Both the position numbers and the translations under genes were made by a program. 64,000 nt of DNA from the IMG/VR virus record IMGVR_UViG_2974611271_000001, positions 1 through 64,000 of that record, one strand, 5' to 3'. The notes below the pieces were generated by a model that did not search any database, had not been told where the DNA came from, and saw only the letters and a list, made by a program, of their open reading frames with translations. Source of the stretch: a virus. Taxonomy: Duplodnaviria > Caudoviricetes. Shown piece after piece: positions 5,340 to 58,923 of this stretch (position 1 is the stretch's first letter; every line of letters starts with the position of its first letter).

Positions 5340-5360
5340 ATAAGCGACTTAGTTTAAACG
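5340..5360. promoter_or_regulatory. ATAAGCGACTTA operator abutting a GTTTAAAC site, upstream of terS
   Basis: Sequence ATAAGCGACTTAGTTTAAACG. Confidence 0.55.
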
Positions 5361-5379
5361 ATAGAGGATTCTAGTACCT

Positions 5380-5823
5380 ATGGGCGAGCAGATCGTGAAA
5401 CGGGTTGCGGCCGACGGGACCCAGCGCGGCCTCAAGCGACGCGGTTCGAAGAATCGTGCGACCGAACTCCTGGAGCAGATGCAGGAGGACGCCCATCGAC
5501 TGTTCGGGATCGACAACCACGATCCGGTGCGTGCGATGAACCTCGTCGGGATGATGGCCTGGCAAGGCTATCCTGCGACCGACAACGAAGGCCGACCCGT
5601 CCTGGACGAGAACGGCGATCAAGTCATGATCCCGCCCGATCATCAACTCGCCCTCGCTGCGTTCGCGAAGGTCGCGCCTTACGTGCGCTCGCAGCTGCGC
5701 CCGAAGGACGAGGAGGCCGACAACAACGACGACGATCCGAGCGAGGATCGGGAAGAGCTGCTTGGCGTGCTCGAGTCGATGGGCGTAAAGGTCGAAGGCT
5801 ACGAGGAGGGCGACGATGAGTAA
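5380..5823 (+). CDS. terS: terminase small subunit (putative)
   Basis: RRGSKNRAT N-terminal motif, AAFAKVAPYV.SQL motif, acidic tail; upstream of terL. Confidence 0.65.
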   Translation: MGEQIVKRVAADGTQRGLKRRGSKNRATELLEQMQEDAHRLFGIDNHDPVRAMNLVGMMAWQGYPATDNEGRPVLDENGDQVMIPPDHQLALAAFAKVAPYVRSQLRPKDEEADNNDDDPSEDREELLGVLESMGVKVEGYEEGDDE

Positions 5824-6055
5824 CCAGCAATCGTTCATGCCGGACGAGGTCCCGAAGAATCGCGCGTTTAAACGTCGAACGCCGAAACCGATCATCGTCG
5901 AATGGCGCGCGAAAGGTGGACGCTCGTTGATTTGGTTTCGCGATTGGTCGAAGTTCGGTCGATACAAGGACCGGGCAACCGCGGAACAGGTCCTGCGCCA
6001 GAAGGCGCACGACAAGCACTTCGAGTATCGGATCAAGGAGAATCCTGATGACTGA
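5816..6055 (+). CDS. hypothetical basic protein
   Basis: 79-aa ORF, GAGGAGG SD. Confidence 0.55.
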   Translation: MSNQQSFMPDEVPKNRAFKRRTPKPIIVEWRAKGGRSLIWFRDWSKFGRYKDRATAEQVLRQKAHDKHFEYRIKENPDD

Positions 6056-6293
6056 CATCGACCCGAACGATCTGCTTCTGCGGCGTTCGATCAAGTGGCG
6101 AGTTGCAGCAGGCTGGGTGATGGTGATCATCCTCGTTTGGCGATACCTGATCCACCCGGGCGCGAGCACGTTGCTCGTGTTCAACGGCGGTGACCCGCTC
6201 CCTGAACTCCCACCCATCGAATGGACCGACGTTCTCGCAATCATCGGCCTTCCCGTTGGGGGCGCGTTCGCGGATCGGATGACCGATGATTGA
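6048..6293 (+). CDS. holin-like membrane protein (GTA 3TM-holin type)
   Basis: WRVAAGWV motif, two TM segments, LAIIGL.VGG. Confidence 0.55.
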   Translation: MTDIDPNDLLLRRSIKWRVAAGWVMVIILVWRYLIHPGASTLLVFNGGDPLPELPPIEWTDVLAIIGLPVGGAFADRMTDD

Positions 6294-6295
6294 GT

Positions 6296-6532
6296 ATGCG
6301 CTCCTCGGACCGCATCGACTCGGCGGATGGGTCGGTCGACATTGCTTTCGACGTTGACCTGAAAGACGACGTCTTCGCGCTCAATGCAGCGCAGTCCGGG
6401 TGGGTGTATTTTATCGGGCACAACAATCGAGTCGGTCGCGTCTACGTCGCAGCAGGCATCGCGTTCCCGCTGCGCGTCTCTTGCGTTCTCTCCGCAGGGA
6501 CCGAACCCACCGACATCGTGGGGCTGGTATGA
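6296..6532 (+). CDS. head spike base protein (RcGTA Rcc01079-like)
   Basis: C-terminus AGIAFPLRVSCVLSAGTEPTDIVGLV matches the family pattern G..LP.RV..V..TGT....IV.L. Confidence 0.55.
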   Translation: MRSSDRIDSADGSVDIAFDVDLKDDVFALNAAQSGWVYFIGHNNRVGRVYVAAGIAFPLRVSCVLSAGTEPTDIVGLV

Positions 6533-7544: not shown

Positions 7545-7630
7545 GGACGATGCGTGGGAGGTCCCATATGTTGATCTCGACGACGAGGAACGCGCGAAGC
7601 GTTTAAACGCACGAGGGAAACGATACCGCC

Positions 7631-18041: not shown

Positions 18042-18084
18042 ACGCGCGCCCCTAAGGACGCCCGTCTCGTCGTTTAAACGTCGA

Positions 18085-18948: not shown

Positions 18949-18994
18949 TGTCTTCTCCGTTGATAAGGCCGACACCGCGCCGGCCATGTGACGA

Positions 18995-19023
18995 CGTATA
19001 AGCGAGTTATAGCACCTCGTCAA
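18995..19023 (-). promoter_or_regulatory. sigma70-like promoter TTGACG-N17-TATACG with operator ATAAGCGAGTTAT
   Basis: Hexamers at 19018-23 and 18995-19000; operator at 18998-19010. Confidence 0.6.
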
Positions 19024-19158
19024 CACCTTTTTTCACGGATAACCAAGTTAGGTTGCTCCTTGATTCTCGATTGCGTGTCGAAACGCAGTCGTCCATAGTG
19101 TTCAAGCGGGCGTCGAAAGGCGCCCGTTTCCATCGCTAGCATTGAAAGGATCCGCCGC

Positions 19159-21111: not shown

Positions 21112-21115
21112 CACG

Positions 21116-21501: not shown

Positions 21502-22462
21502 CCTCACGAACTACAACCAGGCGCGTTTAAACGCGCTGCGCCAGCAGATCGTCTCTCTTGTGCAGACGCTCGAGGCGACGCTCACGCCCGTACTCATCAA
21601 CAACGTGGACGAGGCCGCTCGTCTCGCCGCGGAGATCGAAGCGCAGGCTTTCCTCCGCATCATGCCCGCGGGGCTTGATGTGACGACGCCCAACCCGGGC
21701 GTGATCGCCACCGCTGCGACTTCGGCGCCGTTCAACGGCGCGAAGATGGACGACTGGGCGAAGTCCTATTTCCGCTCGCTCGAGACGACGACGTGGTCGA
21801 CGATCCTCGACGGCGTGACGCAAGGCATGACCAACGACGAACTCGTCCGAGCCGTCCGCGGCACGCGCTCGCGTCGATACATGGACGGCGCGCTGCAGCC
21901 GCGACGCCGCGGCCTCGAGACGCTCGTCCGCACATCGACGAACCACGCGACGAACCAGGGCCGGCAAGCCGTGTGGGAGGCCAATGAAGGCCTGATCTCA
22001 GGCGTGCGCTGGGTCTCGACGCTCGACACGCGCACGACGCCCATCTGCCGCGAACGCGACGGCAAGGTGGGACCCGTGTCCCCGAGCGACGATTGGAAGC
22101 CGCCGAACGGCGCACCGCGTCTGCATCCGCCCATGGCGCGCCCACCTGCGCACCCGAACTGCCGCTCGACGACGGTCGCGGTGACGAAGTCGTGGCGCGA
22201 ACTGGGCTTCGACATGGACGAGCTGCCATCCGGCACGCGCGCGTCGATGGACGGGCAGGTGCCTGCGAACATCACCTACTTCGAATGGCTGAACCGGCAG
22301 AGTGCTGCAACGCAGGAGGAGGTCCTCGGCCCTGCGCGGCTTCGACTATGGCGAGAGGGTGGTATCACGCCTGACCGCTTCCAGAACGACGAGGGCCACT
22401 TCTACACGCTTGCGGAGCTGCGTCGTCGTCAGCCCCAGGCGTTCAAGGATGCAGATCTCTAG
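21356..22462 (+). CDS. minor head / head morphogenesis protein (Mu gpF, SPP1 gp7 family)
   Basis: WVSTLDTRTTPICRERDG, PPAHPNCRST, RASMDGQVP. Confidence 0.9.
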   Translation: MASINERFMDFQVAQQIRWIRLQNRDVREALQMLRRSEKDIEALLRRTDLTNYNQARLNALRQQIVSLVQTLEATLTPVLINNVDEAARLAAEIEAQAFLRIMPAGLDVTTPNPGVIATAATSAPFNGAKMDDWAKSYFRSLETTTWSTILDGVTQGMTNDELVRAVRGTRSRRYMDGALQPRRRGLETLVRTSTNHATNQGRQAVWEANEGLISGVRWVSTLDTRTTPICRERDGKVGPVSPSDDWKPPNGAPRLHPPMARPPAHPNCRSTTVAVTKSWRELGFDMDELPSGTRASMDGQVPANITYFEWLNRQSAATQEEVLGPARLRLWREGGITPDRFQNDEGHFYTLAELRRRQPQAFKDADL

Positions 22463-22471
22463 GAGGACACC

Positions 22472-23511: not shown

Positions 23512-23614
23512 TACCTCGTTTCGACTATAACTCGGTTAGGCGTCAACCGCAAAGTTTGCTCGACGACTGGGCGCGCGCCGCCTAACCTCGAAGTGTCAGC
23601 ATAGGAGGCGGCCG

Positions 23615-24361
23615 ATGGGTAGCAACTCAATGAGGAAACAACGACAAGCCGAAAGAAATTGGAAACCTCCGCAGATTGAGACGCTCACGCAGAAGCAGGC
23701 CTCCTACGTTGCACAACTCGCGAAGAACGATTGCGTGGTCGCCACAGGACCCGCAGGCACGGGCAAGACCTATGTCGCGTGCGCTCACGCCGGACAGGCG
23801 CTCTTCAACAAGGACATCCACAACATCGTCCTGACACGACCCAACGTCGGCGTGGCAGGCAAGACGATGGGCTTCCTCCCGGGTGACGCGAAGCGCAAGA
23901 TGGCGCCTTGGGCCCGTCCGCTCGTCGAGGCGTTTAAACATCACATGGGCGCGAAGAAGCACGAGGAAGCGACCAACCAGGGCAAGATCAAGATCGAGGC
24001 GCTCGAGCACATCAGAGGCCTGACCTTCGACGATGCCGTGATGATCATCGACGAGGCGCAGAACACGACGCCCGAGGAGATGAAGGCTTTCCTGACGCGC
24101 ATCGGCGAGAACTCGCAGGTGATCATCTGCGGCGATGATCGGCAATCCGATCTGCATCCCACCGAGAACGGACTCGCGTGGGTGATGCGCGCAATTGAGC
24201 AAGGCCTCGTGCGCGGGATCGGTCGGACGAAGTTCACGCACGCCGACACCGTGCGCTCGGAGATGTGCCGCATGTGGGCGGAGGCGTTCGACGCGCTCGA
24301 AGACGAGGACGCCGACCCGAAGGCCGGCGTCAATCGTTTCCTGGTTGCGGCGAGCAGTTAA
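23615..24361 (+). CDS. phoH: PhoH-like ATPase
   Basis: GPAGTGKT, MGFLPG, RGLTF, IIDEAQN, CGD..QSD. Confidence 0.92.
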   Translation: MGSNSMRKQRQAERNWKPPQIETLTQKQASYVAQLAKNDCVVATGPAGTGKTYVACAHAGQALFNKDIHNIVLTRPNVGVAGKTMGFLPGDAKRKMAPWARPLVEAFKHHMGAKKHEEATNQGKIKIEALEHIRGLTFDDAVMIIDEAQNTTPEEMKAFLTRIGENSQVIICGDDRQSDLHPTENGLAWVMRAIEQGLVRGIGRTKFTHADTVRSEMCRMWAEAFDALEDEDADPKAGVNRFLVAASS

Positions 24362-25169: not shown

Positions 25170-25229
25170 TGTCTCCGTTGAGTCGCTGTTGATGAGTCGC
25201 TTGTAGCATCCCGCTCGTTTAAACGTCAA
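25170..25229 (-). promoter_or_regulatory. promoter TTGACG-N18-TACAAG plus 33-bp conserved leader; GTTTAAAC in the spacer
   Basis: 25170-25202 is the exact reverse complement of 54154-54186. Confidence 0.65.
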
Positions 25230-37100: not shown

Positions 37101-37175
37101 TCGTTTAAACAGTCGGAAGGCCAGATCGCCAACCGGATGCGTCGCATGGCACAGCGAGGAGTGCGCGGCGCATGA
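34071..37175 (+). CDS. tape measure protein (TP901-type core)
   Basis: 1034 aa Ala-rich; FETAMAEV, GKTTIGELA, C-terminal FADGG, GPGTGRSDSI. Confidence 0.92.
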   Translation: MATQESTLRVGVDSRPMVEGARKGERALDGLGRKAGVLGETFDRLNTRTNLLARAFEALVAVGIATFFTQAVTAAGSFETAMAEVSTLVDETVFNLGRLEDAILAQSRAFGAAPVQQAAAAYQIISAGASTATEAIDLLDASNRLAIGGVTDVATAADGLTSVLNAYGMAASEVSDVSDVLFVGMRAGKTTIGELASSLGNVAPLAAQAGVGFDELVASIAALTKGGISTQQAVTGVRAILAAVTNPTVEAADMAERLGLNFNAAALESRGFAGFMEDVVTATGGSSDAMAQLFGGVEALVPALALAGQAGVDMTAILEDMEERGGATQEAFERMTNTFEFQSARLRQSLMTALIELGSIITSALTPAIKFLADNFDALSRFVMVAAAGFTALMIPAVIAMIPAIASATAGLVAMAAAWLLTPFGAIQALIIGAAAALAYFGDTNVEVAGRVATVWQVLKAVLMTVGQYFGRIYDIAVTAFQGIVDGLADFGESAYNIFLQVWNWATSAWDGAKASAGNFFSNVAERLDEFLGNWGLSLDTIADWIKGAVNFWIGLHVGLIAAIRPTITEGIPALFELAMAKAKNMAIQGLQNIINVFVRGLGGLGDALDLIPGFEGIGDAIRESLTVDFSDLQTDTAALEANLASAGANIGSAFGEALNVDYVGNFGTAVREGAETVRTAFDENILGPFNDALTRTGQTLANDFGANLDTVIEQQETSSEIQEQLNTVIEDGTPVITDFGDAAGGAAGQLRELNAAQQEYIDGLTDEYEQIVQNNGGARDAVRAWYQEQLMILEDLGLKYEDYATMIETIFEERMKEAREQDLENATDWASGISRALDSIEADIGTAADRAESMFKSAFDKSADALADFVMTGKLDFGELARSIIADIIKMQTRMLLFNAIKMAFPGFADGGMVPVFADGGRISGPGTGRSDSILARVSNGEYIVNAKATREFLPMLNQINSGQMPTFADGGLAMGSIAAPRRMASGDEQTNRGDNPTMIFNITTPDAQSFKQSEGQIANRMRRMAQRGVRGA

Positions 37176-39086: not shown

Positions 39087-42000
39087 CCTTGTGATCCAGG
39101 CAGCGGTGACTGTCGCGCTCGGCGCAGCCTACCGCGCGTTGACGCCCGACACGATCATCCAGAACGAAGAAGCGCGGCTCGAAGAAGCCAAGATCACGTC
39201 CGCCTCCGAAGGCGCGACGATTGCGCAGTTGTGGGGTCGTCAGCGCGTTCCTGGTCAGATCATCTGGGCAACCAAATTCCGCGAGGTCGTCGAGGTCGAG
39301 ACGGAGACGCAGAGTGGCGGTAAAGGCGGTGGCCCGGACATCGTCACCGAGACGACGACCTACCGGTACTTCCAATCGTTCGCGGTCGGCCTGTGTGAAG
39401 CGAACGGCGCGCGGATCCGCGTCGGGCGTATCTGGGCAGATGGCGTTGAACTCGACCAGTCGGCCTACACCATCAGGTTCTACGACGGCAGCGAGACGCA
39501 GTCGCCCGACTCGGCAATCGTCGCGACGGAAGGCGACGCGCCTGCGTTCCGCGGGCTGGCCTACCTGGTGTTCGACGACTTCGAGGTCTCGGATCATGGC
39601 AACCGCATCCCGCAGATCACCGTCGAGGTGACGCGCTCCTTGGACGACGATCCCGACCGCATCGAAGAGAAGCTCGAGGCCGTGACGATGATCCCGGGCG
39701 CCAACGAGTTCATCTATGGGACGCGCACCTACTACACGGGCGGCGGTGAGAACAGCTCCACCGAGAACGTGTCTCAGGTGCCCGACACCCCTGACTTGAA
39801 GGTCTCGCTCGATCAACTCGAGGACGACGTGACCAACATCGCCTCGGTGGAGCTCGTCGTGTCGTGGTTCGGCACTGACCTGCGCTGTGGCAACTGCGAA
39901 GTCAAGCCCAAGGTTGACTTCAAGGAAAAGACGGTCAAGCCAGTCGACTGGCGCGTCGCGACCGAGACGCGCTCGTCTGCTGACCTCGTGAGCGAGTACG
40001 AATCTGGCAAGGTGGCTTTCGGTGGCACGCCTGCAGACGTCACTGTGCGCGAGGCTCTGACCGAGATCAAAGGCCGCGGGCATCGCGCTGTCTTCTATCC
40101 GTTCATCATGATGGACATCGAGAACGGCAACTCGCTCCCCAACCCGTATTCCGACAACGCTGCGACGACGGGTCAACCAGTCTACCCGTGGCGCGGCCGG
40201 ATCACCTGCTCCCCAGCCGCGGGTTACGTGGGATCCCCGGACAAGACGGCAGCAGCCGGGACGCAGGTCGCGTCCTTCGTCGGCACGGCAGCAGCCGGCG
40301 ACTTCGGCACCTGGAATGGGACCAACGTCCCCTACACGGGTCCCAGCGAGTGGTCGTTCCGCCGGATGGTCTTGCACTACGCGCACCTGTGCAAGGACAT
40401 CCTCGCCTCGGGAGACGCGTTCATCATCGGCACCGAGATGGTCGGAATGACGACCGTCCGCGATTCCGCGTCGAACTACCCCTTCGTCAATGCGCTGGTC
40501 ACCCTGCTTGCAGACGTCAAGTCGATCCTGCCCTCGGGCGTGGACGTGTCTTACGCGGCTGACTGGTCGGAATACCACTCACATCGCCCGAGCGATGGCT
40601 CAGGGGACGTCTATTTCAACATGGACCCGCTTTGGGCGGTGTGCGACTTTATCGGGATCGACAACTACCTGCCGCTGACTGACTGGCGCACGGCTGACGA
40701 GTACGACTACCGGCTCGACACGCTCATGGACGGCGTTGAAGGAGGCGAGTACTACGACTACTTCTACGCGTCGGATGCTGATCGGGACGCCAACACGCGC
40801 TCGACCATCGTCGATGGTCTCTACTCGATCTCGGGACTCGCAATCGACGACACGATTTCTCCTTCGACAAACGGGACTTCGTATAATCCGAGCATCCGGC
40901 AGAATAACGTTTCGTTTAGCTGCCGCGTGCGACTGCCATCGACACCGGCCGAAGGCGTCCTGTATAAGCAAGGCGGTCCGTCGCTTGGTTGCTGTGTTGT
41001 CCTGCGAGACTCTGGTAGCACGTTGCGTCTGCGGTCCGGCGACGGCGGAGCGTTGGGCGCTTCTACAAGTGACACGGTCGTTCTCGACGTTGACACGTCA
41101 ACTCTGCCCATGGACGGTGAGCTTCACACCATCGCCTGGGATTTCCGCGTAAACCCCGGGCGCGTGCGACTGTGGATTGACGGCGTGTTAATCGGTACCG
41201 AGAACACAACAGGTAGTGGCGCGCTCGACGGTAACGTCTGGTGCGGAACAAACGACTACGGCTACCTTGACGACTTCGGTGACGACGGGATGACCGGTGA
41301 ACCCGTTGGAGCTTGGCCTGATACAACTGGAGCGGAAGATCTTCTCGTCTACCAAGGCGAACTGATCGACGATGCAGGGCCCGTCTACGAGCACTGGATC
41401 TACCGCCAGAAGGACATGCGCAACTGGTGGCTGCATGATCACTTCGACCGCCCGGGCGGGACGCGCGACACGTCGAGCACGTCCTTCACTCCTGGGTCGA
41501 AGCCGATCTGGTTCACCGAGTTCGGCTGCGCGGCAATCGACAAGGGCGCTAACCAGCCGAACGTGTTCCTGGACCCGAAGTCGTCGGAGTCCTTCACGCC
41601 GCACTTCTCGACGGGTGCTCGCGACGACCTGATCCAGCGACGCTACGCCGAGGCGTGGATCAAGTACTGGGCCGCGAACTCGCCCTCGGGCATGATCAGC
41701 ACCGCGGATATGTTCGCCTGGACGTGGGACGCGCGACCGTTCCCGAACTACCCCTATGGCAACTGGGGCGACCGCGACAACTGGCGGCAGGGTCACTGGC
41801 TGAACGGGCGTTTAAACGTCATGTACTTGAAGGACGTCTGCCGCGACCTCGGGTCGATGGTTGGCTTGACCGACGATGACTTCGACTTCACCGGCCTCGA
41901 GAAGTTCCCCGTCCTCGTCCGCGGGCACCTGTCCACAACGATGAAGTCACCGCGCGAGGTGATCGAAGAGCTTGCCATGCTGAACCATGCGAGCATCCTC

Positions 42001-46088: not shown

Positions 46089-47850
46089 AGTCCTCGTCGA
46101 AAACGCTTGGGGCGTCGTTGACGGTCTCGACTATGAACGCTCGCGCGACATCGCCGAGCGTTTAAACACCGAAGTCGAGTTCCAAGGCACGCGCGTCCGT
46201 TTCAAGCCGACGCGATACGCGCTCGACCTCCTCGTGAAGGAGTTCGGCGCTGCGTCGTTTCATTCCGGTTGCCGGTTCGCGTGGGGTCACTTCTACAAGG
46301 ACACGCCGACGCAGGAGGTCGAGTTCAATTTCGTGACTCAGCCCTACCCGCACCAGCGCGAGTGGTTTTCGAACATCAAGGACCTCCCATTCTTCGCGCT
46401 CGAATGGGAAATGGGGCTCGGCAAGACGAAAACGATCCTTGACGTCTGCCACTGGGCATACTCGAAGGGCGACATCGACGCGATCTTGGTCGTCACGCTG
46501 AAAGGCGTGCACCGTAAGTGGGTCGAAAAGGAAGCACCTGCGCACCTGCCTCGCGGGATGTGGGACGGTGCGTTCTGGAAGCGCGCAATCGTGGACAACG
46601 GGATGTGGACGGGCGAGAACGCGCGCAAGCGCACGCCGATCATCGAGTCGAAGAAGCTGGCAATCGCCACTATCAACTTCGAGTCGTGTCACCGCGCGAA
46701 AGGCCTCAAATTCTGCGAGCGGTTCATGCGCCAGCGCAAAGTCGCGCTCGTGGTCGACGAATCTCATCACATCAAGACGCCCAGCGCCGCGACGACGAAG
46801 GCGCTCCTGAAACTCGGCAAGATGGCGAAGCGCCGCTACATCACGACGGGCACAGTCTCGACCGGCTCACCCCTCGACACGTGGTCGCAGTATTCCTTCC
46901 TGGATCCGCGCATCGTAAACAACTGGAAGTATTGGGCGTTCAAGGCCGAGTTCGCCGTGCAAGAACAGGTGGGCGACAAGACCTTCGAAACGTGGGAAAA
47001 GAACCCAGTCACGGGTCGTTCACAGAAAGTCGAGAAGCCGGTGATGGCTGTCGTCGGATACAAGAACGAAGACAAGCTGCGCGCGATGCTCGACCCGTAT
47101 CGGTCGCGCCTCCTGAAAGAGGATTGTCTCGACCTGCCGCCGAAACTGTATCGCATGAGGTCCTTCGAGATGACCGACGCGATGCGCAAGGCCTACATCG
47201 ACATGAGCACGGAGTTCCTGACCGAGTTCAACGGCTCGACGATGACCGCGTCCATGGCAATGGTCAAGCTCTTGCGGCTGCAGCAGATCACGTGCGGTTA
47301 CATCGTTCCCGACGACGTGGATCCGACGGCCGAAGACATCCCGGGCATCCCGATTGAGGAGAACAACCCGCGCATCGAAGCGCTGATGGAAGAGATCGAG
47401 AAGATCCGCGGGATGGGAGTGATCTGGTCCTACAAGCGCTATTGTCTGCGCGAGATCGCGCAAGCGCTGCGCTCTGCTTACGGAGACGCGTCGGTTGTCG
47501 AGTACCATGGCGGGATCGACGAGGAAACGAAAGCCGCCAATCTCCGCGCGTTCCACGAAGAGCGCTGCCGCTGGTTCGTCGGCAACCCGCAATCGGGTGG
47601 CACGGGCATCGACCTCGTGCAGGCTCAGGACATGATCTACCACGACAACTCCTTCAACTTGGGTCTGCGCCTGCAATCCGAAGACCGCATCCATCGGATT
47701 GGCCAGGAAGGCACTGCGTGCACCATCACCGATCTCGAGTGCCTCGGCACCATCGACCGGCTGCAACTTCGCTCGTTGAAGGACAAGCGAGACATCGCGG
47801 CCAGCGTGTCGGGCGATCTTCTAAAACAGTGGTTGACCGAGTCCGTCTGA
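46081..47850 (+). CDS. SNF2-family helicase
   Basis: EMGLGKT, VDESH.IK, TGT, GGTGIDL, QSEDRIHRIGQ. Confidence 0.92.
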   Translation: MPEVLVENAWGVVDGLDYERSRDIAERLNTEVEFQGTRVRFKPTRYALDLLVKEFGAASFHSGCRFAWGHFYKDTPTQEVEFNFVTQPYPHQREWFSNIKDLPFFALEWEMGLGKTKTILDVCHWAYSKGDIDAILVVTLKGVHRKWVEKEAPAHLPRGMWDGAFWKRAIVDNGMWTGENARKRTPIIESKKLAIATINFESCHRAKGLKFCERFMRQRKVALVVDESHHIKTPSAATTKALLKLGKMAKRRYITTGTVSTGSPLDTWSQYSFLDPRIVNNWKYWAFKAEFAVQEQVGDKTFETWEKNPVTGRSQKVEKPVMAVVGYKNEDKLRAMLDPYRSRLLKEDCLDLPPKLYRMRSFEMTDAMRKAYIDMSTEFLTEFNGSTMTASMAMVKLLRLQQITCGYIVPDDVDPTAEDIPGIPIEENNPRIEALMEEIEKIRGMGVIWSYKRYCLREIAQALRSAYGDASVVEYHGGIDEETKAANLRAFHEERCRWFVGNPQSGGTGIDLVQAQDMIYHDNSFNLGLRLQSEDRIHRIGQEGTACTITDLECLGTIDRLQLRSLKDKRDIAASVSGDLLKQWLTESV

Positions 47851-49762: not shown

Positions 49763-51541
49763 ATGAACAACGCAGAACGCTTCGAGCGTCTGTTCGACGG
49801 ATACCGCAAGCGGTTCGGTCGATACGACCTCGCAGGACGCAAATCCGCAAAAGGCAAGGAAGAAGGCAAAGCGACGACGGTCGACCAAGAGCTGACGTCC
49901 GACCTCTACGGCAAGCACATCGAAGGCGAAGTCGGGATCGGTGTGATCCCGCTGCGCGCAGACAACACGGTTCACTTCGCGGCAATCGACGTTGACGTCT
50001 ACAGCGAGGAAGATCGCGAGAAGCGCAAGCTCACCCACGAAGACGTCGCGAGCGCTGTCGCGGATTCGCCTCTCATCGTGACGCGGTCGAAGTCGAACGG
50101 CGTCCACGTCTGGCTCTTCATGAAGAACGCGGTTCCCGCGCAGATCGCAATCGAGTATCTGCAAGGTGTCGCCGCGCGCCTCGGCGTCGCAGGCACTGAG
50201 CTCTTCCCGAAGCAGGTCGCACGTGCGAACGAAGGCGACGTGGGCAACTGGATCAACCTCCCATACTTCGGCGGCGGTCGCGTCGCGGTCATTCCTGAGC
50301 GCACCGAAGCCGGCACCGACCGCTACATCGAACCCGACCTCGAGCAGTTCCTCGAGATCGCTGAGGCCGCGGCGATTGACGCGACCGAGGAGTGGCTGGT
50401 CGCGAACACCGAAGCCGTGAACACCGACAAGCAGGACGAGGAGGCGGAGCTGTTCTTCGACGGGCCGCCGTGCCTGCAAACTCTGCTCGCAGGCTGGCCG
50501 AACCGTCGCGCGTCCATCGAACGCAAGTTCAAGGAAGGTGCAATCAGCGAGGACCAGTACAAGAAGCAAATGGCCTACACCTATCCGCAACTCGAGGAAG
50601 GCAACCGCGACAACACGTTCTTGAACGTCGGGCACTACATTCGGCGCCGCATCATGAAGTTCAACACCGACGCCGAAATGAGCAAATCCGAAAAGGAACT
50701 GCTGCTCGAGGAACTGCGTCGTGCGCACGACGTCTGGGGCATGAACAAGTATGGCAACGACTGGCTGGACCCTGCGTTTAAACGCAAGTACGGGATCGAA
50801 GGCGATCTGCCGCGCATCGCGAACCAGGCGTCGAAAGGAAAGTGGGGCTACGCTTGCACGAAGGAACCGCTCGTCGGTTTCTGCAATCGCCGCCTCTGCG
50901 TCAAACGCAAGTTCGGTGTCGGAACGTCGATGGCTGACATGCCCGAGTTGTCGGAATTCACCATCGTGTCGTCCGAGGATCGTCAGTACTACGTGACATG
51001 CCACAACGCGATGGGCCAACCCACGCGCGTCTACATCCCGGACGTCGAGACGCTTTACTCGCAGACGAAGTTCTCGCAGGCGATCACGAACCAGACCGAC
51101 ATGTTCTGGCGCACGATGCCCGCGCCGAAGTATCAGGAACTCATCGAAGGCATGATGAAGGACGCGAACGAGAATCGCCGCATCGTGCCGCCGCCCGCCG
51201 ACTCTGATCGTCGTCAGATTCTGATCTCAGCGCTCGAGGAGTTCATCGAGAACAAGAAGCTGCCCGCAGGCAAGAACGATTCCGCGATCCAATCGGGCCG
51301 CGTGATCATGGCGGAAAACGAGCTCGAGGCCTATTTCAAGCTCCAGCACTTCATCAACTTCCTGCGCACGAAAGGCATCGGGTTCCCACAACCCATCATC
51401 GCGAAGATGCTGACCGAGGACTTCAATCTGACCTACAAGACGAAGCAGTTCGCCAACCGACGCGTGCGCGTCTACGTCGCGAACATGGAACAGCTCGAGA
51501 TTCTTTCGACCGAAGGTTTCGAGGACGATGGGGAGGCTTAG
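49763..51541 (+). CDS. AEP-superfamily primase with PriCT-like region
   Basis: AAIDVD, RSKSNGVHVWLF, GNWINLPY, PPCL, EGNRDN, C...P....C....C. Confidence 0.8.
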   Translation: MNNAERFERLFDGYRKRFGRYDLAGRKSAKGKEEGKATTVDQELTSDLYGKHIEGEVGIGVIPLRADNTVHFAAIDVDVYSEEDREKRKLTHEDVASAVADSPLIVTRSKSNGVHVWLFMKNAVPAQIAIEYLQGVAARLGVAGTELFPKQVARANEGDVGNWINLPYFGGGRVAVIPERTEAGTDRYIEPDLEQFLEIAEAAAIDATEEWLVANTEAVNTDKQDEEAELFFDGPPCLQTLLAGWPNRRASIERKFKEGAISEDQYKKQMAYTYPQLEEGNRDNTFLNVGHYIRRRIMKFNTDAEMSKSEKELLLEELRRAHDVWGMNKYGNDWLDPAFKRKYGIEGDLPRIANQASKGKWGYACTKEPLVGFCNRRLCVKRKFGVGTSMADMPELSEFTIVSSEDRQYYVTCHNAMGQPTRVYIPDVETLYSQTKFSQAITNQTDMFWRTMPAPKYQELIEGMMKDANENRRIVPPPADSDRRQILISALEEFIENKKLPAGKNDSAIQSGRVIMAENELEAYFKLQHFINFLRTKGIGFPQPIIAKMLTEDFNLTYKTKQFANRRVRVYVANMEQLEILSTEGFEDDGEA

Positions 51542-54411: not shown

Positions 54412-55209
54412 ATGAAACAGTTCATCGCACATACTGACGAACCGAAAACCTTCGCCCACAAAAAGGGCGCGACGGCCGCGATCAAGCGCGACCTGAACAA
54501 GCACCACGACGCCTACGGCGATGTGCTCTACGACACTGGCTTCGACGTGAAGCCGACGGGTGACCGTTTCGGTGTCGTCGTTTACGTCGATCTCACGCCG
54601 ACGCAGGCGCAGGAACTTGTCGGTCCCGAACTCAGCGGCTACGTTATCGAACCTCAACTGAAAGAGGACGATCCGAAGGTGAACGCGAAAACCGACGAAC
54701 CGTCCGACACGAAAACCGACGAACCGTCCACGCCGAAACGCGTAAAAGGCCGCGTCGAGATCGAACCGTCGGGCTTGAACCTTGTGCCTGCACGTCACGG
54801 CTCGAAGCAGCAGCAGATCATCGAGATGCTTGCGCGGCCTGAAGGCGCGTCCATCGACGAAATGGTCGCCGACCTCGCACGTCGCGACGGCTCGAACTGG
54901 AAGCCGCAATCGCTCATGGCGGGCCTGTACCACCACTTCCCCCACAAGGGCTATGGCATCACGACGACCGAAGGCGACAACGGCGAGTACCGCTACCACC
55001 TCGTCTACCCTGAGGGCGTGACGACGTTCGCCGCGCCGCGGCGACCGCAGTCGCAGCAGACGAAGATCGACCGGATGCGCGGGTTCCTCGCGTCGCACGA
55101 AACCGACGGTGCAAAGAAGGTCGGTGAGCTGACCGACGACGCGCTGCTCGAGAAGTTCAAGAACGTGACCGCGCTCAAGGACTACGTCGAACGCATGGAC
55201 GACATCTGA
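54412..55209 (+). CDS. DUF3489-like winged-helix protein
   Basis: SKQQQIIEMLARPEGASIDEM....W.PQS; CAACGGAGA leader; KTDEPS tandem repeat. Confidence 0.65.
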   Translation: MKQFIAHTDEPKTFAHKKGATAAIKRDLNKHHDAYGDVLYDTGFDVKPTGDRFGVVVYVDLTPTQAQELVGPELSGYVIEPQLKEDDPKVNAKTDEPSDTKTDEPSTPKRVKGRVEIEPSGLNLVPARHGSKQQQIIEMLARPEGASIDEMVADLARRDGSNWKPQSLMAGLYHHFPHKGYGITTTEGDNGEYRYHLVYPEGVTTFAAPRRPQSQQTKIDRMRGFLASHETDGAKKVGELTDDALLEKFKNVTALKDYVERMDDI

Positions 55210-55246: not shown

Positions 55247-55343
55247 GATCGAAGGCGGCGCACTCGCGTCGCCTTCATTCATGCAACTGCGCGTTTAAAC
55301 GACGCGCGCCTGTGGTGGCTTACCAGGAAAGGAAAACCACACC

Positions 55344-56192: not shown

Positions 56193-56755
56193 TGGACACG
56201 AAGCACGACATCATCCGCGCGATGCTGCGCGAGATCGGTGAGGATGAACGCGAAGGGCTGGCTGAAACGCCAGCCCGGGTCGTCAAGGCGTGGAACACCT
56301 GGTTCGGCGGATACGGGCGCGACCCGGTCGAAGTCCTGAAGGTGTTCGAAGACGGCGCCGAAGGCGTGGACGAGATGGTCATCGAAGTCGACATCCCGTT
56401 CTACACGCACTGCGAGCACCACATGGCGCCTTTCTTCGGCCTCGCGTCCGTCGCGTATGTCCCGAACGGGAAAGTGCTCGGCCTGTCGAAGATGAACCGC
56501 CTCGTCGATCTGTTCGCGCGTCGCCTGCAGGTTCAGGAGCGTCTCACGAACCAGATCGCCGACGCGCTCGAGGAAAACCTGAAACCGAAAGGCGTGGGCG
56601 TCCTGCTGCGTGCGCGCCACATGTGCGTCGAGTCGCGCGGTGTTCAGCATCGCGGATGCTCGACCACGACGAGCGCGCTGCGAGGCGCGATCAAAGACGA
56701 ACCGGACGCGCGGATGGAATTCCTGACGCTCGCCAAGACGACAACGCCAATCTGA
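56192..56755 (+). CDS. folE: GTP cyclohydrolase I
   Basis: REGL.ETP.RV, CEHH..PF, GLSK..R, RRLQVQERLT.QIA, HMC...RG. Confidence 0.95.
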   Translation: MDTKHDIIRAMLREIGEDEREGLAETPARVVKAWNTWFGGYGRDPVEVLKVFEDGAEGVDEMVIEVDIPFYTHCEHHMAPFFGLASVAYVPNGKVLGLSKMNRLVDLFARRLQVQERLTNQIADALEENLKPKGVGVLLRARHMCVESRGVQHRGCSTTTSALRGAIKDEPDARMEFLTLAKTTTPI

Positions 56756-56763
56756 GGACCAAC

Positions 56764-57348
56764 ATGACCACGGAATACTCGAAACCCGACGACCTCGAGA
56801 AGCTGGGCTCCGGCTCCGCTGATCAACGTGAGTGGCCCAAGCTGCCTCCCACGCCCGAAGTGCTCGAGCGCTTCCCGAACCCGATGAAGTTCTCGCGTCA
56901 CCCGTCGCCCAATCCCATCCAGCTCGGCGGCTACGACGACCCCTTCGAGTTCACTTCGCTGTGTCCGAAGACCGGTCAGCCCGATCATGCGCGCATCGTC
57001 GTCAACTACCAGCCGAAGGACTGGTGCGTTGAGTCGAAGTCGTGGAAGATCTACCTGCAATCGTTCCGGCTGCATGGCGAATTCCACGAGTCTTGCATCC
57101 AGCGCATCAAGGACGACCTGGTCGACCTGCTCGACCCGCTGTGGATCGAGGTGACCGGCGAGTTCACGCCGCGCGGCGGCATCTCGATCAACCCGACTGC
57201 GCGCTGGGAATACCCGATGAAGGGCGTCACGTTCGAACAGATGACCGACACGCGCTCGCCGCAAGATCGCCTGAACGAGATGCTGGCGAATGGCTCGCAC
57301 GTCGGCGAGCGTATCGGTGAAGGCGAAATGCCTGATCCGACCATGTGA
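56764..57348 (+). CDS. queF: NADPH-dependent preQ0 reductase (type I)
   Basis: EFTSLCPKTGQPD, QueF motif ESKSWKIYL, FHESC, PRGGI. Confidence 0.92.
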   Translation: MTTEYSKPDDLEKLGSGSADQREWPKLPPTPEVLERFPNPMKFSRHPSPNPIQLGGYDDPFEFTSLCPKTGQPDHARIVVNYQPKDWCVESKSWKIYLQSFRLHGEFHESCIQRIKDDLVDLLDPLWIEVTGEFTPRGGISINPTARWEYPMKGVTFEQMTDTRSPQDRLNEMLANGSHVGERIGEGEMPDPTM

Positions 57349-57430
57349 TCAAGATGCGCGCCTTGTTTCGTCCTTGAGGCAAGGCGCGCATCCCACTACA
57401 ACGGTTGCACATCGAACAACGGAGACCGAC

Positions 57431-57628
57431 ATGGCCCACAACTACCTCACCGACGCGCAGTCGCGCATCGTGCAGCAGATCAGCAACGACGTGACCGTGC
57501 CGGAAAAGATCCGCAACGTCGTCGTCGCTGCGATGCGTCAGCGCAATGCCAAACTTCGTGGCTCGTTCGACGATTGCCGGGAAGCGAACGATGCGCTGGT
57601 CAGCGCTGTTGATGCGCTGGAGGTCTGA
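57431..57628 (+). CDS. small early-type protein
   Basis: CAACGGAGA leader; MAHNYLTD... Confidence 0.6.
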   Translation: MAHNYLTDAQSRIVQQISNDVTVPEKIRNVVVAAMRQRNAKLRGSFDDCREANDALVSAVDALEV

Positions 57629-57630
57629 TC

Positions 57631-58923
57631 ATGCACCTTTACATGAGCGGCACGCCGCGCAACGACCCCTACCAGACCATCGAGAATCGCCTCTGCACGC
57701 ATCGCCTTTTCTCGATGCACGCCGAGTATGAACGCCCAGTGCTGCGCTGGGTCGATGATCTGCGCAACGGCATCCTCGACGCTGAGGACTACCTGCGCGC
57801 CTACCCGCACCACCGAGACAACATCATCAAGCGCGACGCCGCGCGCCGTGAGATGCAGAAGCAGTATGGGCACAGCGAGGACTACGACATGTCCGAAGTG
57901 CTCGAGCACGTCTGCAAGACGCTCAAGGGCCGTCCATACCCGAAGGCGATCCTGCTCGACTCGGGCGCGTTCACGGCCTGGAACAAAGGCGAGACGACGA
58001 CGGTCGACGACGTGAAGCGCAAGTACACGTCCTTCATCGAGAAGGCCGGCGACATGTTCGACGAGATCTGGGGCGTCAACCTCGACGTAATCCCGGGCGA
58101 AAAAGGTCGCGACCCGACCGAAGACGAACTCAAGCGCGCGGTCGAGGTGTCGGACATCAACTTCGAGATCCTGGTCAAGGAGTTCGGGGACATCATCCTT
58201 CCCGTGTATCACCAAGGCGAAAGCCTCGACCGGCTCGACGGGTGCGTTGCGCAGGTCGATGGCAAATCGAACTACATCTGCGTCTCGCCTCGAAACGACC
58301 TGCCGGAAGGCAAGCGCGTCGATTGGTCGCGCGACGTTCACTTCGAGATCAAGCGTCGCTACTCGCACATCATGACGCACGGCCTCGCGACGACGGGCAA
58401 TCGCATGGTTCGCACCGTGCCGTGGTACTCGGGCGACTCCGCCGCATGGGTGCAGCACGGCGGCTTCGGCATGATCGACATCTTCCACGACGAAGATCAC
58501 TCGTTCGGTCGCAAAGCGCAGCCGCACTACATGAACTACTTCGTGTCGCTCGACAAAGTCGAGTTCGACCTCGACGGCTCCTTCGTGTCGAAGACCGGTG
58601 AGCGTTTAAACGCGCGGTCGCTCGGCTGTCATGAGGATATGAAGATGGGCGAGGTTGCCGAGGTCTTGATGCAGCATGTGTCCGACATCGACGCGCTGCC
58701 CATGGTTGGCGGTCACATTCGCGACGAGTCCAAGCACTTCAATCGGCTGGGACCTGAGCACCGTGCGTTCATCAAGCAACGCGTCGAACGCCTCGGTTTC
58801 CCGTTCGAGTCGTGCCGCTGGGATTCTCGCATCAGGAATCTGATCTGCATGGCTGAGTTCGTCGAGTTCGCTGAATGGGCGAAAGATGCGCCGAAAGACC
58901 GCGCGCAGGTGAGCCTCTTCTGA
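57631..58923 (+). CDS. dpdA: DNA-guanine transglycosylase (DpdA-like, TGT fold)
   Basis: LLDSGAFT, NLDVIPG, LPVYHQGE, HGLA, PWYSGDSAAW; next to que genes. Confidence 0.8.
   Translation: MHLYMSGTPRNDPYQTIENRLCTHRLFSMHAEYERPVLRWVDDLRNGILDAEDYLRAYPHHRDNIIKRDAARREMQKQYGHSEDYDMSEVLEHVCKTLKGRPYPKAILLDSGAFTAWNKGETTTVDDVKRKYTSFIEKAGDMFDEIWGVNLDVIPGEKGRDPTEDELKRAVEVSDINFEILVKEFGDIILPVYHQGESLDRLDGCVAQVDGKSNYICVSPRNDLPEGKRVDWSRDVHFEIKRRYSHIMTHGLATTGNRMVRTVPWYSGDSAAWVQHGGFGMIDIFHDEDHSFGRKAQPHYMNYFVSLDKVEFDLDGSFVSKTGERLNARSLGCHEDMKMGEVAEVLMQHVSDIDALPMVGGHIRDESKHFNRLGPEHRAFIKQRVERLGFPFESCRWDSRIRNLICMAEFVEFAEWAKDAPKDRAQVSLF

What the first reader, a model, noticed from the sequence alone, without database searches (positions are those of the whole stretch)
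5352..58611. Genome-wide, quasi-periodic (C)GTTTAAAC(G) palindrome written into genes with rare codons
Seen: at least 14 GTTTAAAC sites; 9 are the full CGTTTAAACG and 21521-21536 is a perfect 16-mer. My rough expectation at about 64% GC is well under one copy. Of the 16 TTTAAA hexamers I spotted, 14 are in this context. Ten are in coding frames, as R-L-N (CGT TTA AAC) or x-F-K (TTT AAA), where the genome otherwise uses CTG/CTC, TTC and AAG, so they look synonymously selected. Four are intergenic, three at promoters or operators. Consecutive spacings from 37103 are 4707, 4350, 4616, 4517 and 3311 bp; larger gaps (7.6-18 kb, 29.6-37.1 kb) also exist. Inference: a dispersed cis-acting system, such as binding sites for a DNA-organising or partitioning protein (matS/parS-like), programmed nick or ejection-pause sites (a T5 A1-like gene is present), or loading sites for the modification machinery.
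Basis: partly seen in the sequence, partly recalled or inferred. Interest (0 to 1): 0.87.

Follow-up and report, generated by a model that had tools for sequence, protein, structure and literature searches.

The report
Evenly spaced palindrome marking a phage genome
A marine phage and its relatives keep one rare 10-letter palindrome about every 4,000-4,500 letters along their DNA, even rewriting genes with rare codons to do so, which points to an unknown phage-made reader that handles the whole chromosome.

Summary
GTTTAAAC occurs 14 times in the window and 17 times in the 77,874-bp genome. Shuffles give 0.09 and a codon-preserving null gives 0.24 coding sites, against 10 seen. It is the most enriched 8-mer. 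The full word is YGTTTAAACR. Ten of only 27 coding positions that could carry it synonymously do carry it, using rare TTA or TTT-AAA codons.

The word is not a host signal: 61 genomes of a likely host family hold 0-56 copies each. It is a trait of the Nanhaivirus-like phage clade (R26L 20, Pan1 16, metagenomic relatives 9-25). Spacing is more even than chance. Individual sites turn over, but density is kept. Relatives use dialects: GTGTAAAC, which is asymmetric and found in both orientations, and GTGTACAC. This implies a co-evolving, phage-encoded reader.

The winged-helix protein, DpdA and the primase each failed a co-variation or cross-clade test.

My best guess, at about 0.3, is loading or priming sites for the phage's unusual replication machinery. 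Rivals are architectural binding sites, nuclease-stop self tags, and modification or nick sites. The closest precedent is the unexplained 17-bp dyad repeat of Cluster O mycobacteriophages.

The parts
5352..5359 (.). Site AGTTTAAACG. Intergenic, 28 bp upstream of ORF 5380-5823 and directly after a promoter-like TATAAGCGACTTA element.
5866..5873 (.). Site CGTTTAAACG inside ORF 5816-6055, read GCG TTT AAA CGT (A-F-K-R).
7601..7608 (.). Site CGTTTAAACG. Intergenic, 30 bp upstream of the large terminase gene 7631-9136. R26L has a site 17 bp upstream of its terminase gene.
18072..18079 (.). Site CGTTTAAACG between convergent ORFs 16005-18041(+) and 18085-19026(-). Conserved in R26L.
21525..21532 (.). 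Site at the centre of the perfect 16-mer GCGCGTTTAAACGCGC, inside ORF 21356-22462, read CGT TTA AAC (R-L-N). Conserved in R26L.
23932..23939 (.). Site in the PhoH-like gene 23615-24361 (A-F-K-H). Pan1 and G003 keep it. R26L, G001 and G002 have the synonymous TTC AAG instead.
25217..25224 (.). Site between divergent ORFs 24652-25209(-) and 25387-26154(+), upstream of promoter-like ATAAGCGACTTATA elements.
29587..29594 (.). Site TGTTTAAACG in ORF 28556-30208 (PHROG label 'DNA transfer protein'), read M-F-K-R. Conserved in Pan1 and G001, absent in R26L.
37103..37110 (.). Site near the end of the tape-measure gene 34071-37175 (S-F-K-Q). Conserved in R26L.
41810..41817 (.). Site in the GTA-like tail gene 38974-43473 (R-L-N). 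Conserved in R26L.
46160..46167 (.). Site in the SNF2-like helicase gene 46048-47850 (R-L-N). Conserved in R26L, Pan1 and G001. Decayed to CGC CTG AAC in G002, which uses another dialect.
50776..50783 (.). Site in the archaeo-eukaryotic (AEP) primase gene (A-F-K-R).
55293..55300 (.). Intergenic site between the winged-helix gene and queC, just upstream of a conserved pseudoknot-like queC leader. A site is present at this place in R26L, Pan1, G001, G003, G080 and G081.
58604..58611 (.). Site in the DpdA-like transglycosylase gene 57631-58923 (R-L-N).
49763..51541 (+). Candidate reader, unproven: AEP primase of 592 aa. It has an N-terminal Prim-Pol fold, a conserved Cys-rich middle part, and a C-terminal part with a weak likeness to a winged-helix oriT-binding protein.
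   Evidence: Pfam AEP-TOTE E 8.5e-16. AlphaFold2 model, mean pLDDT 76. Foldseek: 7nqe E 6.7e-10, RepB' 3h20 E 1e-3, 5vfx E 0.028.
54412..55209 (+). Candidate reader, disfavoured: DUF3489 winged-helix protein.
   Evidence: Pfam E 1.7e-7. No co-variation with the motif. Homologues occur in four phages without the motif.
57631..58923 (+). Candidate reader, unproven: DpdA-like DNA transglycosylase of 430 aa. Only residues about 104-283 resemble other phage DpdA.
   Evidence: phrog_887 E 1e-72; tblastn; alignment.

Best explanation
SHOWN. GTTTAAAC (full form YGTTTAAACR) is a selected cis-element of the phage, not a host or compositional signal. It is a trait of the Nanhaivirus-like clade. It is kept at about one site per 3.3-5.6 kb and is spaced more evenly than chance. 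It sits in non-coding DNA where possible, and otherwise is written synonymously into genes. Its sites turn over while density is kept. Sub-lineages use one-letter dialects: CGTGTAAACG (asymmetric, in both orientations) and CGTGTACACG.

INFERRED. The word is read by a phage-encoded factor that co-evolves with it. That factor contacts the two halves non-equivalently, so it is a monomer, a pseudo-dimer or a single-strand reader rather than a simple homodimer. The function needs coverage of the whole chromosome.

MY COMMITMENT, weakly held. The sites are loading or initiation points for the phage's own replication-recombination machinery. That machinery comprises an AEP primase, three SF1 helicases, an SNF2-like helicase, a family-A polymerase, a beta clamp, a clamp loader and an epsilon exonuclease. 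No DnaB/DnaG pair was found. In this reading the sites are dispersed priming or origin-like signals, so every stretch of phage DNA has a start site within a few kb on either strand. A palindrome serves both strands at once. A pyrimidine at position -1 would template a purine-initiated primer.
For: Selection and phage specificity:
- (enrichment, codon-aware null, 10 of 27 possible coding positions used)
- (61 host-family genomes: 13 have none, the maximum is 56 per genome, and only 2 of 61 exceed the reversed control word)

Clade trait and dialects:
- The word or its dialect is the top 8-mer in 7 of the first 8 whole genomes examined.
- G002: 11 of 12 sites are GTGTAAAC or GTTTACAC.
- G077 plus G004: 13 GTGTACAC in 61 kb, with the same C...G flanks.

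Turnover:
-. In G002, ancestral sites have decayed to preferred codons, and new sites appear where relatives have CGTGTAGACG.

Asymmetry:
-. The probability of 11 or more hybrids among 12 sites under random pairing of half-sites is about 0.01.

Even spacing:
-. Over 144 gaps the median is 4.0 kb. Gaps under 1 kb are 7.6% against 21% expected; gaps over 8 kb are 5.6% against 14.6%.

Strictness:
-. All 24 one-mismatch variants together occur 6 times in this genome.

For the replication reading specifically:
- The primase has an AEP Prim-Pol fold, and the structural matches include RepB', which I recall (no call checked it) to be a sequence-specific primase.
- AEP Prim-Pols are reported to need template words, including an 8-nt one and GTG(A/G) in phage NrS-1 (PMC8718748, passages read). 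Here the half-site is Y-G-T-(T/G).
- The helicases scanned are UvrD-like (two), Dda-like and SNF2-like, not DnaB-like.
- The motif co-occurs with this replication module and is absent from five capsid relatives that carry other modules.
Against: - No reader was identified.
- The primase of G002, which uses another dialect, keeps all 79 positions that are invariant among type-A primases.
- The primase's C-terminal winged-helix-like part is poorly conserved among phages that share the same motif.
- Four phages with full-length homologues of the primase (23-27% identity: DSL-LC04, PMBT28, PSA28, 023Pt) show no word of comparable enrichment; the best have 5 copies.
- Known primase words are 3-8 nt and frequent. 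A 10-nt word every 4 kb would be unprecedented.
- In G002 the asymmetric word is not twice as dense, as a strictly strand-specific function would predict.
- The asymmetry argument rests mainly on one genome. The flank asymmetry of G080 is not significant (P 0.14).
- No read-level or bench data exist.
Confidence: 0.3

Rival explanations
1. Architectural or regulatory binding sites. A phage DNA-binding protein occupies the sites to organise, bridge, silence or partition the chromosome. Analogues are KorB operators on plasmid RK2, matS/Noc-type sites, and the 17-bp dyad repeats of Cluster O mycobacteriophages.
For: - The sites are strictly conserved palindromes dispersed over the replicon, in and out of genes, like the 34 invariant Cluster O repeats. 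Those authors predict a DNA-binding protein acting in a process other than transcription initiation (PMC4351075, passages read).
- Both phage groups have elongated heads.
- Site density is unchanged in the asymmetric dialect, which fits an orientation-free duplex function.
- One site abuts the -35 region of the promoter of the SprT-like gene in 5 genomes, and the type-C phage has its own dialect at that place.
Against: - No ParB/KorB-like or other convincing site-specific binder was found in the proteins scanned.
- The one clear winged-helix protein fails the co-variation and cross-clade tests.
- A simple homodimer does not explain 11 of 12 hybrid sites in G002.
- Most sites are not at promoters.
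Confidence: 0.2
2. Self tag against a translocating nuclease (Chi-like logic). The word stops or tames a phage-encoded or host helicase-nuclease that would otherwise degrade DNA. Phage DNA is then protected about every 4 kb in both directions, while host DNA, which almost lacks the word, is not.
For: - An 8-mer at about 4.5-kb spacing, needed in both orientations, with lineage-specific dialects and site turnover, is the pattern known for Chi (recalled knowledge).
- The word is extremely rare in 61 host-family genomes.
- The phage encodes several SF1 helicases, exonucleases and a nucleotide-salvage set.
Against: - It cannot be the host's own Chi, which must be frequent in the host chromosome.
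- No AddAB/RecBCD-like helicase-nuclease fusion was found in the phage.
- A Pam3 gp33-like protein, annotated elsewhere as a host-nuclease inhibitor, is present and would make Chi-like protection less necessary.
- Per-orientation density is halved in G002 without compensation.
Confidence: 0.15
3. Enzyme target on the phage DNA itself. The word is the site of a sparse base modification (insertion of a 7-deazaguanine by the DpdA-like enzyme at the Y-G-T guanines) or of programmed single-strand nicks. The mark or nick is what the phage needs at regular intervals.
For: - All motif-bearing genomes whose covered sequence includes that region encode DpdA and the preQ pathway. Five of five motif-less capsid relatives lack DpdA.
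- Base-flipping enzymes read sites as monomers, which would explain asymmetric dialects.
- 34 guanines out of about 47,900 would be 0.07%, within the 'less than 0.1% of Gs' reported for some DpdA classes whose role is unexplained (PMC10516641, passages read).
- I recall that tRNA transglycosylases recognise U-G-U; here the context is Y-G-T.
- Dispersed nick consensus sites are known in T5-like and other phages (recalled knowledge).
Against: - The DpdA core resembles the DpdA1-type enzymes of phages 9g and Iggy, whose reported motifs are 2-3 nt with 16-30% of G replaced (abstracts).
- G078, a complete phage with a 35%-identical DpdA, and the other DpdA loci of 37% identity or less, apart from type-C L120, show no such word.
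- G003 and G007 have similar short DpdAs, but G007 shows only weak enrichment.
- Nicks on both strands of a palindrome would break the genome.
- Being a modification target does not by itself explain enrichment or even spacing.
Confidence: 0.15
4. Packaging recognition. The word is a multi-copy pac-like signal that lets the terminase start on, or stay on, phage DNA and ignore host DNA.
For: - Rarity in the host gives discrimination.
- A site lies 17-30 bp upstream of the large terminase gene in this phage and in R26L, and 285 bp upstream in G001.
- Genomes in this clade assemble as circular or permuted, consistent with headful packaging (passages).
Against: - One pac site is enough for known headful phages (recalled knowledge).
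- Even spacing and use of both orientations are not predicted.
- There is no consistent relation to the putative small-terminase gene across genomes.
Confidence: 0.06
5. No function: a by-product of composition, codon usage, a repeat element, or a programmed -1 frameshift signal (U UUA AAC).
For: The heptamer T TTA AAC is a classical slippery sequence (recalled knowledge), and 5 of the 10 coding sites are in the matching frame.
Against: - Enrichment survives dinucleotide shuffles, order-3 Markov and codon-shuffle nulls.
- Flanks beyond +/-1 are not conserved, so the word is not part of a mobile repeat.
- 7 of 17 sites are intergenic, and 5 coding sites are in the non-slippery frame.
- The dialects GTGTACAC and GTGTAAAC are not slippery.
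Confidence: 0.02

Closest known systems
17-bp dyad-symmetric repeats of Cluster O mycobacteriophages (Corndog group)
   Same: Invariant palindromic word; 31-34 copies spread through a roughly 70-kb genome of a non-temperate siphophage with a prolate head; partly intergenic and partly in genes; mostly not at promoters; function unknown (PMC4351075 passages; PMC6439249 abstract).
   Different: The sequence is unrelated (TGTTCGGNNNCCGAACA), with a 3-bp spacer. The phage lineage and host are unrelated. The authors describe the repeats as denser at one genome end; the first 50 kb of Corndog gave 13 sites with CV 0.63. No dialects, even spacing or codon cost have been described there.
KorB operators (OB) of IncP plasmid RK2 and ParB-parS systems (recalled, not checked in a call)
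   Same: About a dozen identical palindromic sites dispersed over a roughly 60-kb replicon, some far from promoters, read by one replicon-encoded protein.
   Different: No ParB/KorB-family protein was found here. The sites here are 8-10 bp, often inside genes, and evenly spaced. One lineage has an asymmetric dialect.
Chi sites and DNA uptake sequences (recalled)
   Same: Short exact words kept at a roughly constant density over a whole genome, with lineage-specific dialects, turnover of individual sites, and a function that needs coverage.
   Different: Those words are abundant in the cell's own chromosome and are asymmetric. This word is nearly absent from the host family, belongs to the phage, and is palindromic in most lineages.
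Stoperators of Cluster A mycobacteriophages (as described in PMC4351075, and recalled)
   Same: Tens of near-identical sites across a phage genome, read by a phage protein, with subcluster-specific variants.
   Different: Stoperators are asymmetric, oriented with transcription, and serve lysogenic silencing. These phages have no lysogeny genes, and orientation is mixed where it can be seen.
Template recognition words of AEP primase-polymerases (NrS-1; pRN1 recalled)
   Same: AEP enzymes that start synthesis only next to a specific word: NrS-1 uses 5'-TTTGGTTA-3' and 5'-GTG(A/G)-3'. The half-site here is Y-G-T-(T/G), and the phage encodes an AEP primase.
   Different: No biochemical link has been shown. 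The word here is longer, palindromic and rare. Homologous primases in four other phages come without such a word.

Membership tests
ParB-parS / KorB-OB partition or global-regulator system | A ParB/KorB-family protein encoded by the replicon | tested here: not met
   Pfam scans of about 79 own proteins gave no ParB-like N-terminal or KorB hit. Some small ORFs in gaps between my gene calls were not scanned.
ParB-parS / KorB-OB partition or global-regulator system | Palindromic sites clustered near an origin, or placed at promoters | tested here: not met
   Sites are spread evenly over the genome. Only 3 of 7 intergenic sites lie near promoter-like elements, and at varying positions.
Host Chi site | Over-represented in the host chromosome, about one per few kb | tested here: not met
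   0-56 copies per 2.1-5.6 Mb genome in 61 genomes of the family of a Paracoccaceae MAG; 13 genomes have none.
Host Chi site | Asymmetric word with orientation bias | tested here: not met
   The word is palindromic in most lineages. In G002, seven sites read GTGTAAAC and four read GTTTACAC on the + strand.
Cluster A stoperator system | Temperate phage with a repressor; sites oriented with transcription | tested here: not met
   No lysogeny genes are reported for R5C, R26L or Pan1 (passages). The sites are palindromic, or of mixed orientation.
Dispersed dyad repeats of Cluster O type (function unknown) | Tens of invariant dyad-symmetric copies throughout a non-temperate phage genome, both in and between genes | tested here: met
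   17-25 invariant copies per complete genome. 53 of 117 sites are not inside called genes. This is a likeness of pattern only; no shared sequence or shared protein was shown.
Localized nick sites (T5 / phiKMV / tf type) | A physical single-strand interruption at the consensus in virion DNA | not testable with these tools
   Only one public run held 5% of the sampled words, and only as contigs. No read ends are available.
DpdA (7-deazaguanine transglycosylase) target motif | A modified G at the motif in virion DNA | not testable with these tools
   The genes are present. Reported DpdA motifs are GA and GGC (abstracts). No modification data were seen for this clade.
Restriction-site avoidance (PmeI/DraI-type sites) | The site is depleted in the phage relative to expectation | tested here: not met
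   The opposite is seen: 17 observed against fewer than 1 expected.
Programmed -1 frameshift slippery site | The heptamer lies in the X XXY YYZ frame of a gene | tested here: not met
   5 of 17 sites are in that frame, 5 are in the other frame, and 7 are intergenic.
AEP primase initiation word | The word co-varies with, or is shared by, the primase family | tested here: inconclusive
   The AEP fold is confirmed. However, 0 of 79 type-A-invariant primase positions change in the dialect phage G002, and 4 of 4 phages with homologous primases lack a comparable word.

The most novel reading that the evidence does not exclude
A phage-encoded 'chromosome identity code'. An asymmetric reader, not yet identified, co-evolves with a 10-bp word. 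The phage keeps that word every 4 kb or so on both strands, at real coding cost. This gives phage DNA, and not host DNA, access to a genome-wide process: priming or loading of a DnaB-less replisome, or protection from a translocating nuclease. Dialect switches (GTTTAAAC, then GTGTAAAC, then GTGTACAC) would then act like specificity changes that isolate related phages from each other.
Probability: 0.35. Interest if true: 0.9.

Novelty: new variant of a known kind. Interest (0 to 1): 0.78.

Why it matters
Three papers on these phages (R5C, R26L and Pan1; passages searched) do not mention the motif. Three full-text searches found no description of it.

It is a clean natural case of a genome-wide, evenly spaced, exactly conserved word with lineage dialects in lytic phages. 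Its selection can be measured: 10 of 27 possible coding positions are used, with the rarest codons.

It might also explain the unexplained Cluster O repeats.

There are practical uses too. The word predicts PmeI/DraI fragment patterns that test DNA modification directly. The dialects give a sequence marker for sub-lineages in metagenomes.

Tried and rejected
- Host signal or Chi: rejected by counts in 61 host-family genomes.
- Composition or codon artefact: rejected.
- Longer repeat or hairpin: no conservation beyond +/-1. Arm extension of 3 bp or more occurs in only 11 of 103 sites.
- Promoter element: the phage's promoter-like word ATAAGCGA (full form TATAAGCGACTTATA) occurs 10 times, and only 3 copies (at two sites) lie within 100 bp of a site.
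- Recombination break-points: blast blocks between this phage and R26L often end near intergenic sites, but not specifically.
- Winged-helix protein as reader: disfavoured.
- 'DNA transfer protein' as reader or as T5 A1: a remnant only in G002 and not found in the 80%-complete G006; only weak HTH hits; the PDB sequence search gave a coiled-coil match only.
- Small protein 63206-63598, the outlier in my specificity scan (7 of 19): its slot is empty in the motif-bearing G006.
- The universal unknown protein at 68972-69745 has an HExxH motif plus Cys-rich zinc-ribbon-like motifs, which I read as SprT-like. It is not an obvious sequence reader.
- Phylogenetic profiling: the motif-less relatives share only structural genes, so profiling does not single out a gene.
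- Rfam: no family in the window, and none at the queC leader.
- Sequencing runs: no RNA holder listed. The one holder is a small share kept as contigs, so I did not lay reads.
- Supplementary tables were not opened. The 7-deazaguanine papers and the R26L and Pan1 papers may list modification levels or DpdA classes for this clade there.
- The possible fourth dialect CAGTGCACTG rests on 3 copies in one 10-kb fragment and is left as a lead.

Full report
IDENTITY OF THE WINDOW

The window is the first 64 kb of a 77,874-bp virus record. Its tail region is 95% identical to Dinoroseobacter phage vB_DshS_R26L. The record length equals the published genome size of vB_DshS-R5C (PMC5454422, passage read). 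It is therefore probably R5C or a near-identical phage; this is an inference. Close relatives are R26L (79.5 kb) and Pseudanabaena phage Pan1 (72 kb), all filed under Nanhaivirus.

GTTTAAAC occurs at the 14 stated places. Dinucleotide shuffles give 0.09 on average and never more than 1. Fourteen of the 16 TTTAAA hexamers lie inside it. The whole genome has 17 copies, and the reversed control word has none. It is the most over-represented 8-mer against an order-3 Markov model.

I called 89 genes with a simple codon-usage score; this is crude and covers 84% of the genome. Ten sites lie in genes, five read as xGT TTA AAC and five as xxG TTT AAA Cxx. Seven are intergenic.

Shuffling synonymous codons within each gene 1000 times gave a mean of 0.244 coding sites and a maximum of 3. 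The codons are indeed rare:
- TTA is 0.6% of Leu codons, and half of all 10 TTA codons are in sites.
- 5 of the 6 TTT-AAA pairs among 46 Phe-Lys dipeptides are sites.
- Only 27 positions in the called genes could carry the word without changing the protein, and 10 do.

ANATOMY OF THE WORD

Over 103 sites from six genomes, position -1 is C in 82% and T in 16%. Position +1 is G in 82% and A in 16%. Nothing further out is conserved. The unit is therefore YGTTTAAACR and not part of a longer repeat or hairpin.

The word is exact. All one-mismatch variants together occur only 6 times in this genome.

Across seven genomes, 53 of 117 sites are not inside a called gene. Such DNA is only 15.7% of bases (binomial P 4e-14). 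My gene calls miss small genes, so the true non-coding share is lower still.

NOT A HOST SIGNAL

One genome-contig scan gave a Paracoccaceae MAG, with 2 sites in 3.4 Mb. In 61 genomes of its family:
- the word occurs 0-56 times per genome;
- 13 genomes have none;
- it exceeds the same-composition control word in only 2 of 61.

The phage has 218 copies per Mb. The richest of these genomes has about 19 per Mb.

A CLADE TRAIT WITH DIALECTS

R26L has 20 copies and Pan1 has 16. In both, every TTTAAA lies inside the word.

Among IMG/VR loci found with the capsid protein, GTTTAAAC was the top 8-mer in 10 of the 19 loci longer than 9 kb whose capsid is at least 69% identical. It was the top word in none of the loci with 57% identity or less.

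Whole records gave these counts:
- G001: 10 copies plus 2 GTGTAAAC (67 kb).
- G003: 25 (84 kb).
- G006: 15 (62 kb).
- G080: 9 (40 kb).
- G081: 11 (37 kb).
- G007, a 44%-GC relative: only 6 against 2.1 expected.

Three records differ:
- G002 (58 kb) has 11 sites of the asymmetric CGTGTAAACG, in both orientations, and a single GTTTAAAC.
- G077 and G004 are two fragments from one sample. They carry 7 and 6 copies of (C)GTGTACAC(G) and no GTTTAAAC.
- One 10-kb fragment has 3 copies of CAGTGCACTG. I treat this as a lead only.

The dialects differ at one base pair per half-site (position 3/6) and keep the flanks.

Orthology mapping shows both conservation and turnover:
- 46160 is kept in R26L, Pan1 and G001, but reads CGC CTG AAC in G002.
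- At 23932, relatives without the site have the preferred TTC AAG.
- G002's own sites lie where relatives have CGTGTAGACG and similar sequences.

EVEN SPACING

The CV of gaps is 0.33-0.72, against about 0.9 for random placement. P is at most 0.034 in 9 of 11 genomes or fragments. The exceptions are G006 (P 0.16) and G004 (P 0.44). The genomes are related, so these tests are not independent, but the site positions largely differ between genomes.

Pooling 144 gaps gives a median of 4.0 kb. There are too few short gaps (7.6% under 1 kb against 21% expected) and too few long gaps (5.6% over 8 kb against 14.6%). What is conserved is density and coverage, not particular positions.

WHAT READS THE WORD?

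The candidates fared as follows.

1. DUF3489 winged-helix protein (54412-55209).
   - Its presumed recognition helix differs between this phage and R26L, which share the motif. It is nearly identical between R26L and G002, which use different dialects.
   - Pam3, M6, CN1 and RHph_I65, which carry homologues, have no such palindrome.

2. DpdA.
   - It is present in every motif-bearing genome whose covered sequence includes that region, and absent from five motif-less capsid relatives.
   - However, a complete phage with a 35%-identical DpdA (G078) has no such word. Nor do the other DpdA loci of 37% identity or less, apart from type-C L120.
   - Its core resembles enzymes reported to act on 2-3-nt motifs.

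3. AEP primase (49763-51541).
   - Pfam gives AEP-TOTE. The AlphaFold2 model has mean pLDDT 76. Foldseek matches Prim-Pol domains, RepB' and S-2L PrimPol, and the C-terminal part weakly resembles a winged-helix oriT-binding protein.
   - AEP Prim-Pols can require template words of 3-8 nt (PMC8718748, passages).
   - Against this, G002's primase keeps all 79 type-A-invariant residues.
   - Four phages with full-length homologues lack a comparable word.

4. 'DNA transfer protein'. It is a remnant in G002 and was not found in the 80%-complete G006.

5. Profiling. The motif-less relatives share only structural genes, so profiling does not narrow the list.

Eleven hybrids among 12 sites in G002 are unlikely under random pairing of half-sites (P about 0.01). 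A single homodimer would move both halves together.

The steps GTTTAAAC, GTGTAAAC, GTGTACAC are then single-position changes. The similar flank asymmetry in G080 (7 of 9 sites) is not significant (P 0.14). This inference therefore rests mainly on one genome.

MECHANISM

Coverage, strictness, use of both strands, rarity in host DNA and co-evolution fit several readings.
- I rank replication loading or priming sites first, at about 0.3. The phage has an AEP primase, and the scanned helicases are UvrD-like (two), Dda-like and SNF2-like rather than DnaB-like. The evidence against this reading is real and is listed in the Best explanation section.
- Architectural binding sites: 0.2.
- A nuclease-stop self tag: 0.15.
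- A modification or nick target: 0.15.
- Packaging recognition: 0.06.
- Chance or frameshifting is excluded for practical purposes.

COMPARISON WITH WHAT IS KNOWN

The nearest documented case is the invariant 17-bp dyad repeat of Cluster O mycobacteriophages. It has 34 copies in Corndog, a non-temperate siphophage with a prolate head. About a third of the copies lie clearly inside genes, and the function is unknown (PMC4351075, passages).

R26L has an elongated head and Pan1 a prolate one. This parallel is noted, not explained.

The even spacing, the dialects, the opportunity count and the host contrast were not mentioned in the passages of that paper that I read (a search for 'evenly' found nothing). 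KorB operators, Chi, uptake sequences and stoperators resemble single aspects; the membership table lists which defining features fail.

I found no prior description of this motif. The R5C, R26L and Pan1 papers were searched for 'motif', 'palindrom' and 'restriction'. Three full-text searches found nothing. Supplements were not consulted.

VERDICT

This is a genuine, strongly selected and phage-specific dispersed element with lineage dialects. Its reader and function remain open. The decisive tests are cheap: PmeI digestion, native sequencing, pull-down and primase assays.

Noticed in passing
window 55250-55349 (leader of queC), and the same place in R26L, Pan1, G001, G003, G006, G080 and G081: There is a conserved 5' leader that can form an H-type pseudoknot: CCUG...CAGG plus G(G/A)UGG...CCA(C/U)C, with an A-rich, Shine-Dalgarno-containing linker next to the start codon. 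One pair co-varies (A-U in 5 sequences, G-C in 3, none unpaired). The architecture recalls a preQ1-type riboswitch in front of preQ-pathway genes, but Rfam gave no match.
   Followed up: partly
window 2748-3944 and 61115-61552: Two proteins have dATP/dGTP diphosphohydrolase (MazZ-like) domains (PF18909, E 8e-22; PF04447, E 5e-9). They occur in a phage that also carries queCDEF, folE and DpdA, which hints at manipulation of the dGTP pool.
   Followed up: no
G000 68972-69745 (L103 8972-9745): This gene is annotated 'transcription elongation protein' in R26L and Pan1. It has a conserved HExxH motif and C-terminal Cys-rich zinc-ribbon-like motifs, which I read as an SprT-like metalloprotease. It is universal in the clade. 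Its promoter abuts the most widely conserved motif site.
   Followed up: partly
window 4378, 5340, 18998, 25254, 25278, 30216, 44996 (and 71612, 77228 beyond the window): A phage-specific promoter-like element, (T/C)ATAAGCGACTTATA, often with a CTAG-containing word about 10-15 bp upstream. The core word ATAAGCGA occurs 10 times in the genome, one copy of which (52806) lacks the TATA context and is not listed here. R26L uses a variant, TATAACTCG.
   Followed up: no
window 28556-30208: The 'DNA transfer protein' (phrog_1745, E 5e-184) shows only weak N-terminal HTH hits and a coiled-coil match in the PDB. Nothing supports a T5 A1-type nuclease. It sits between the head and tail genes.
   Followed up: partly
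Pan1 record ON968452 (L007, L008): Pan1 is reported on a cyanobacterium, yet it has 62.5% GC, an 88%-identical capsid, and the same motif system as the roseophages. Its paper itself notes that the GC content is far above that of the host. The host assignment deserves a second look.
   Followed up: no
G007 21181-24906 (L100): The large terminase homologue lies in a 3.7-kb ORF and matches in four separate pieces, as if interrupted by inteins or insertions.
   Followed up: no
G076 (L218-L220) and Bordetella phage CN1 (L111): Other unexplained repeats were seen: GGCCCCACGCG about 14 times in G076, and TAGATAGATA 8 times in the first 50 kb of CN1.
   Followed up: no
Salmonella phage PMBT28 (L222) and Pseudomonas phage PSA28 (L223): Both carry an adenylosuccinate-synthetase-like gene next to a pyrophosphohydrolase (a PurZ/MazZ-like pair, suggesting 2-aminoadenine DNA). 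Both also have the same primase, UvrD-like helicase and PolA module as this clade.
   Followed up: no
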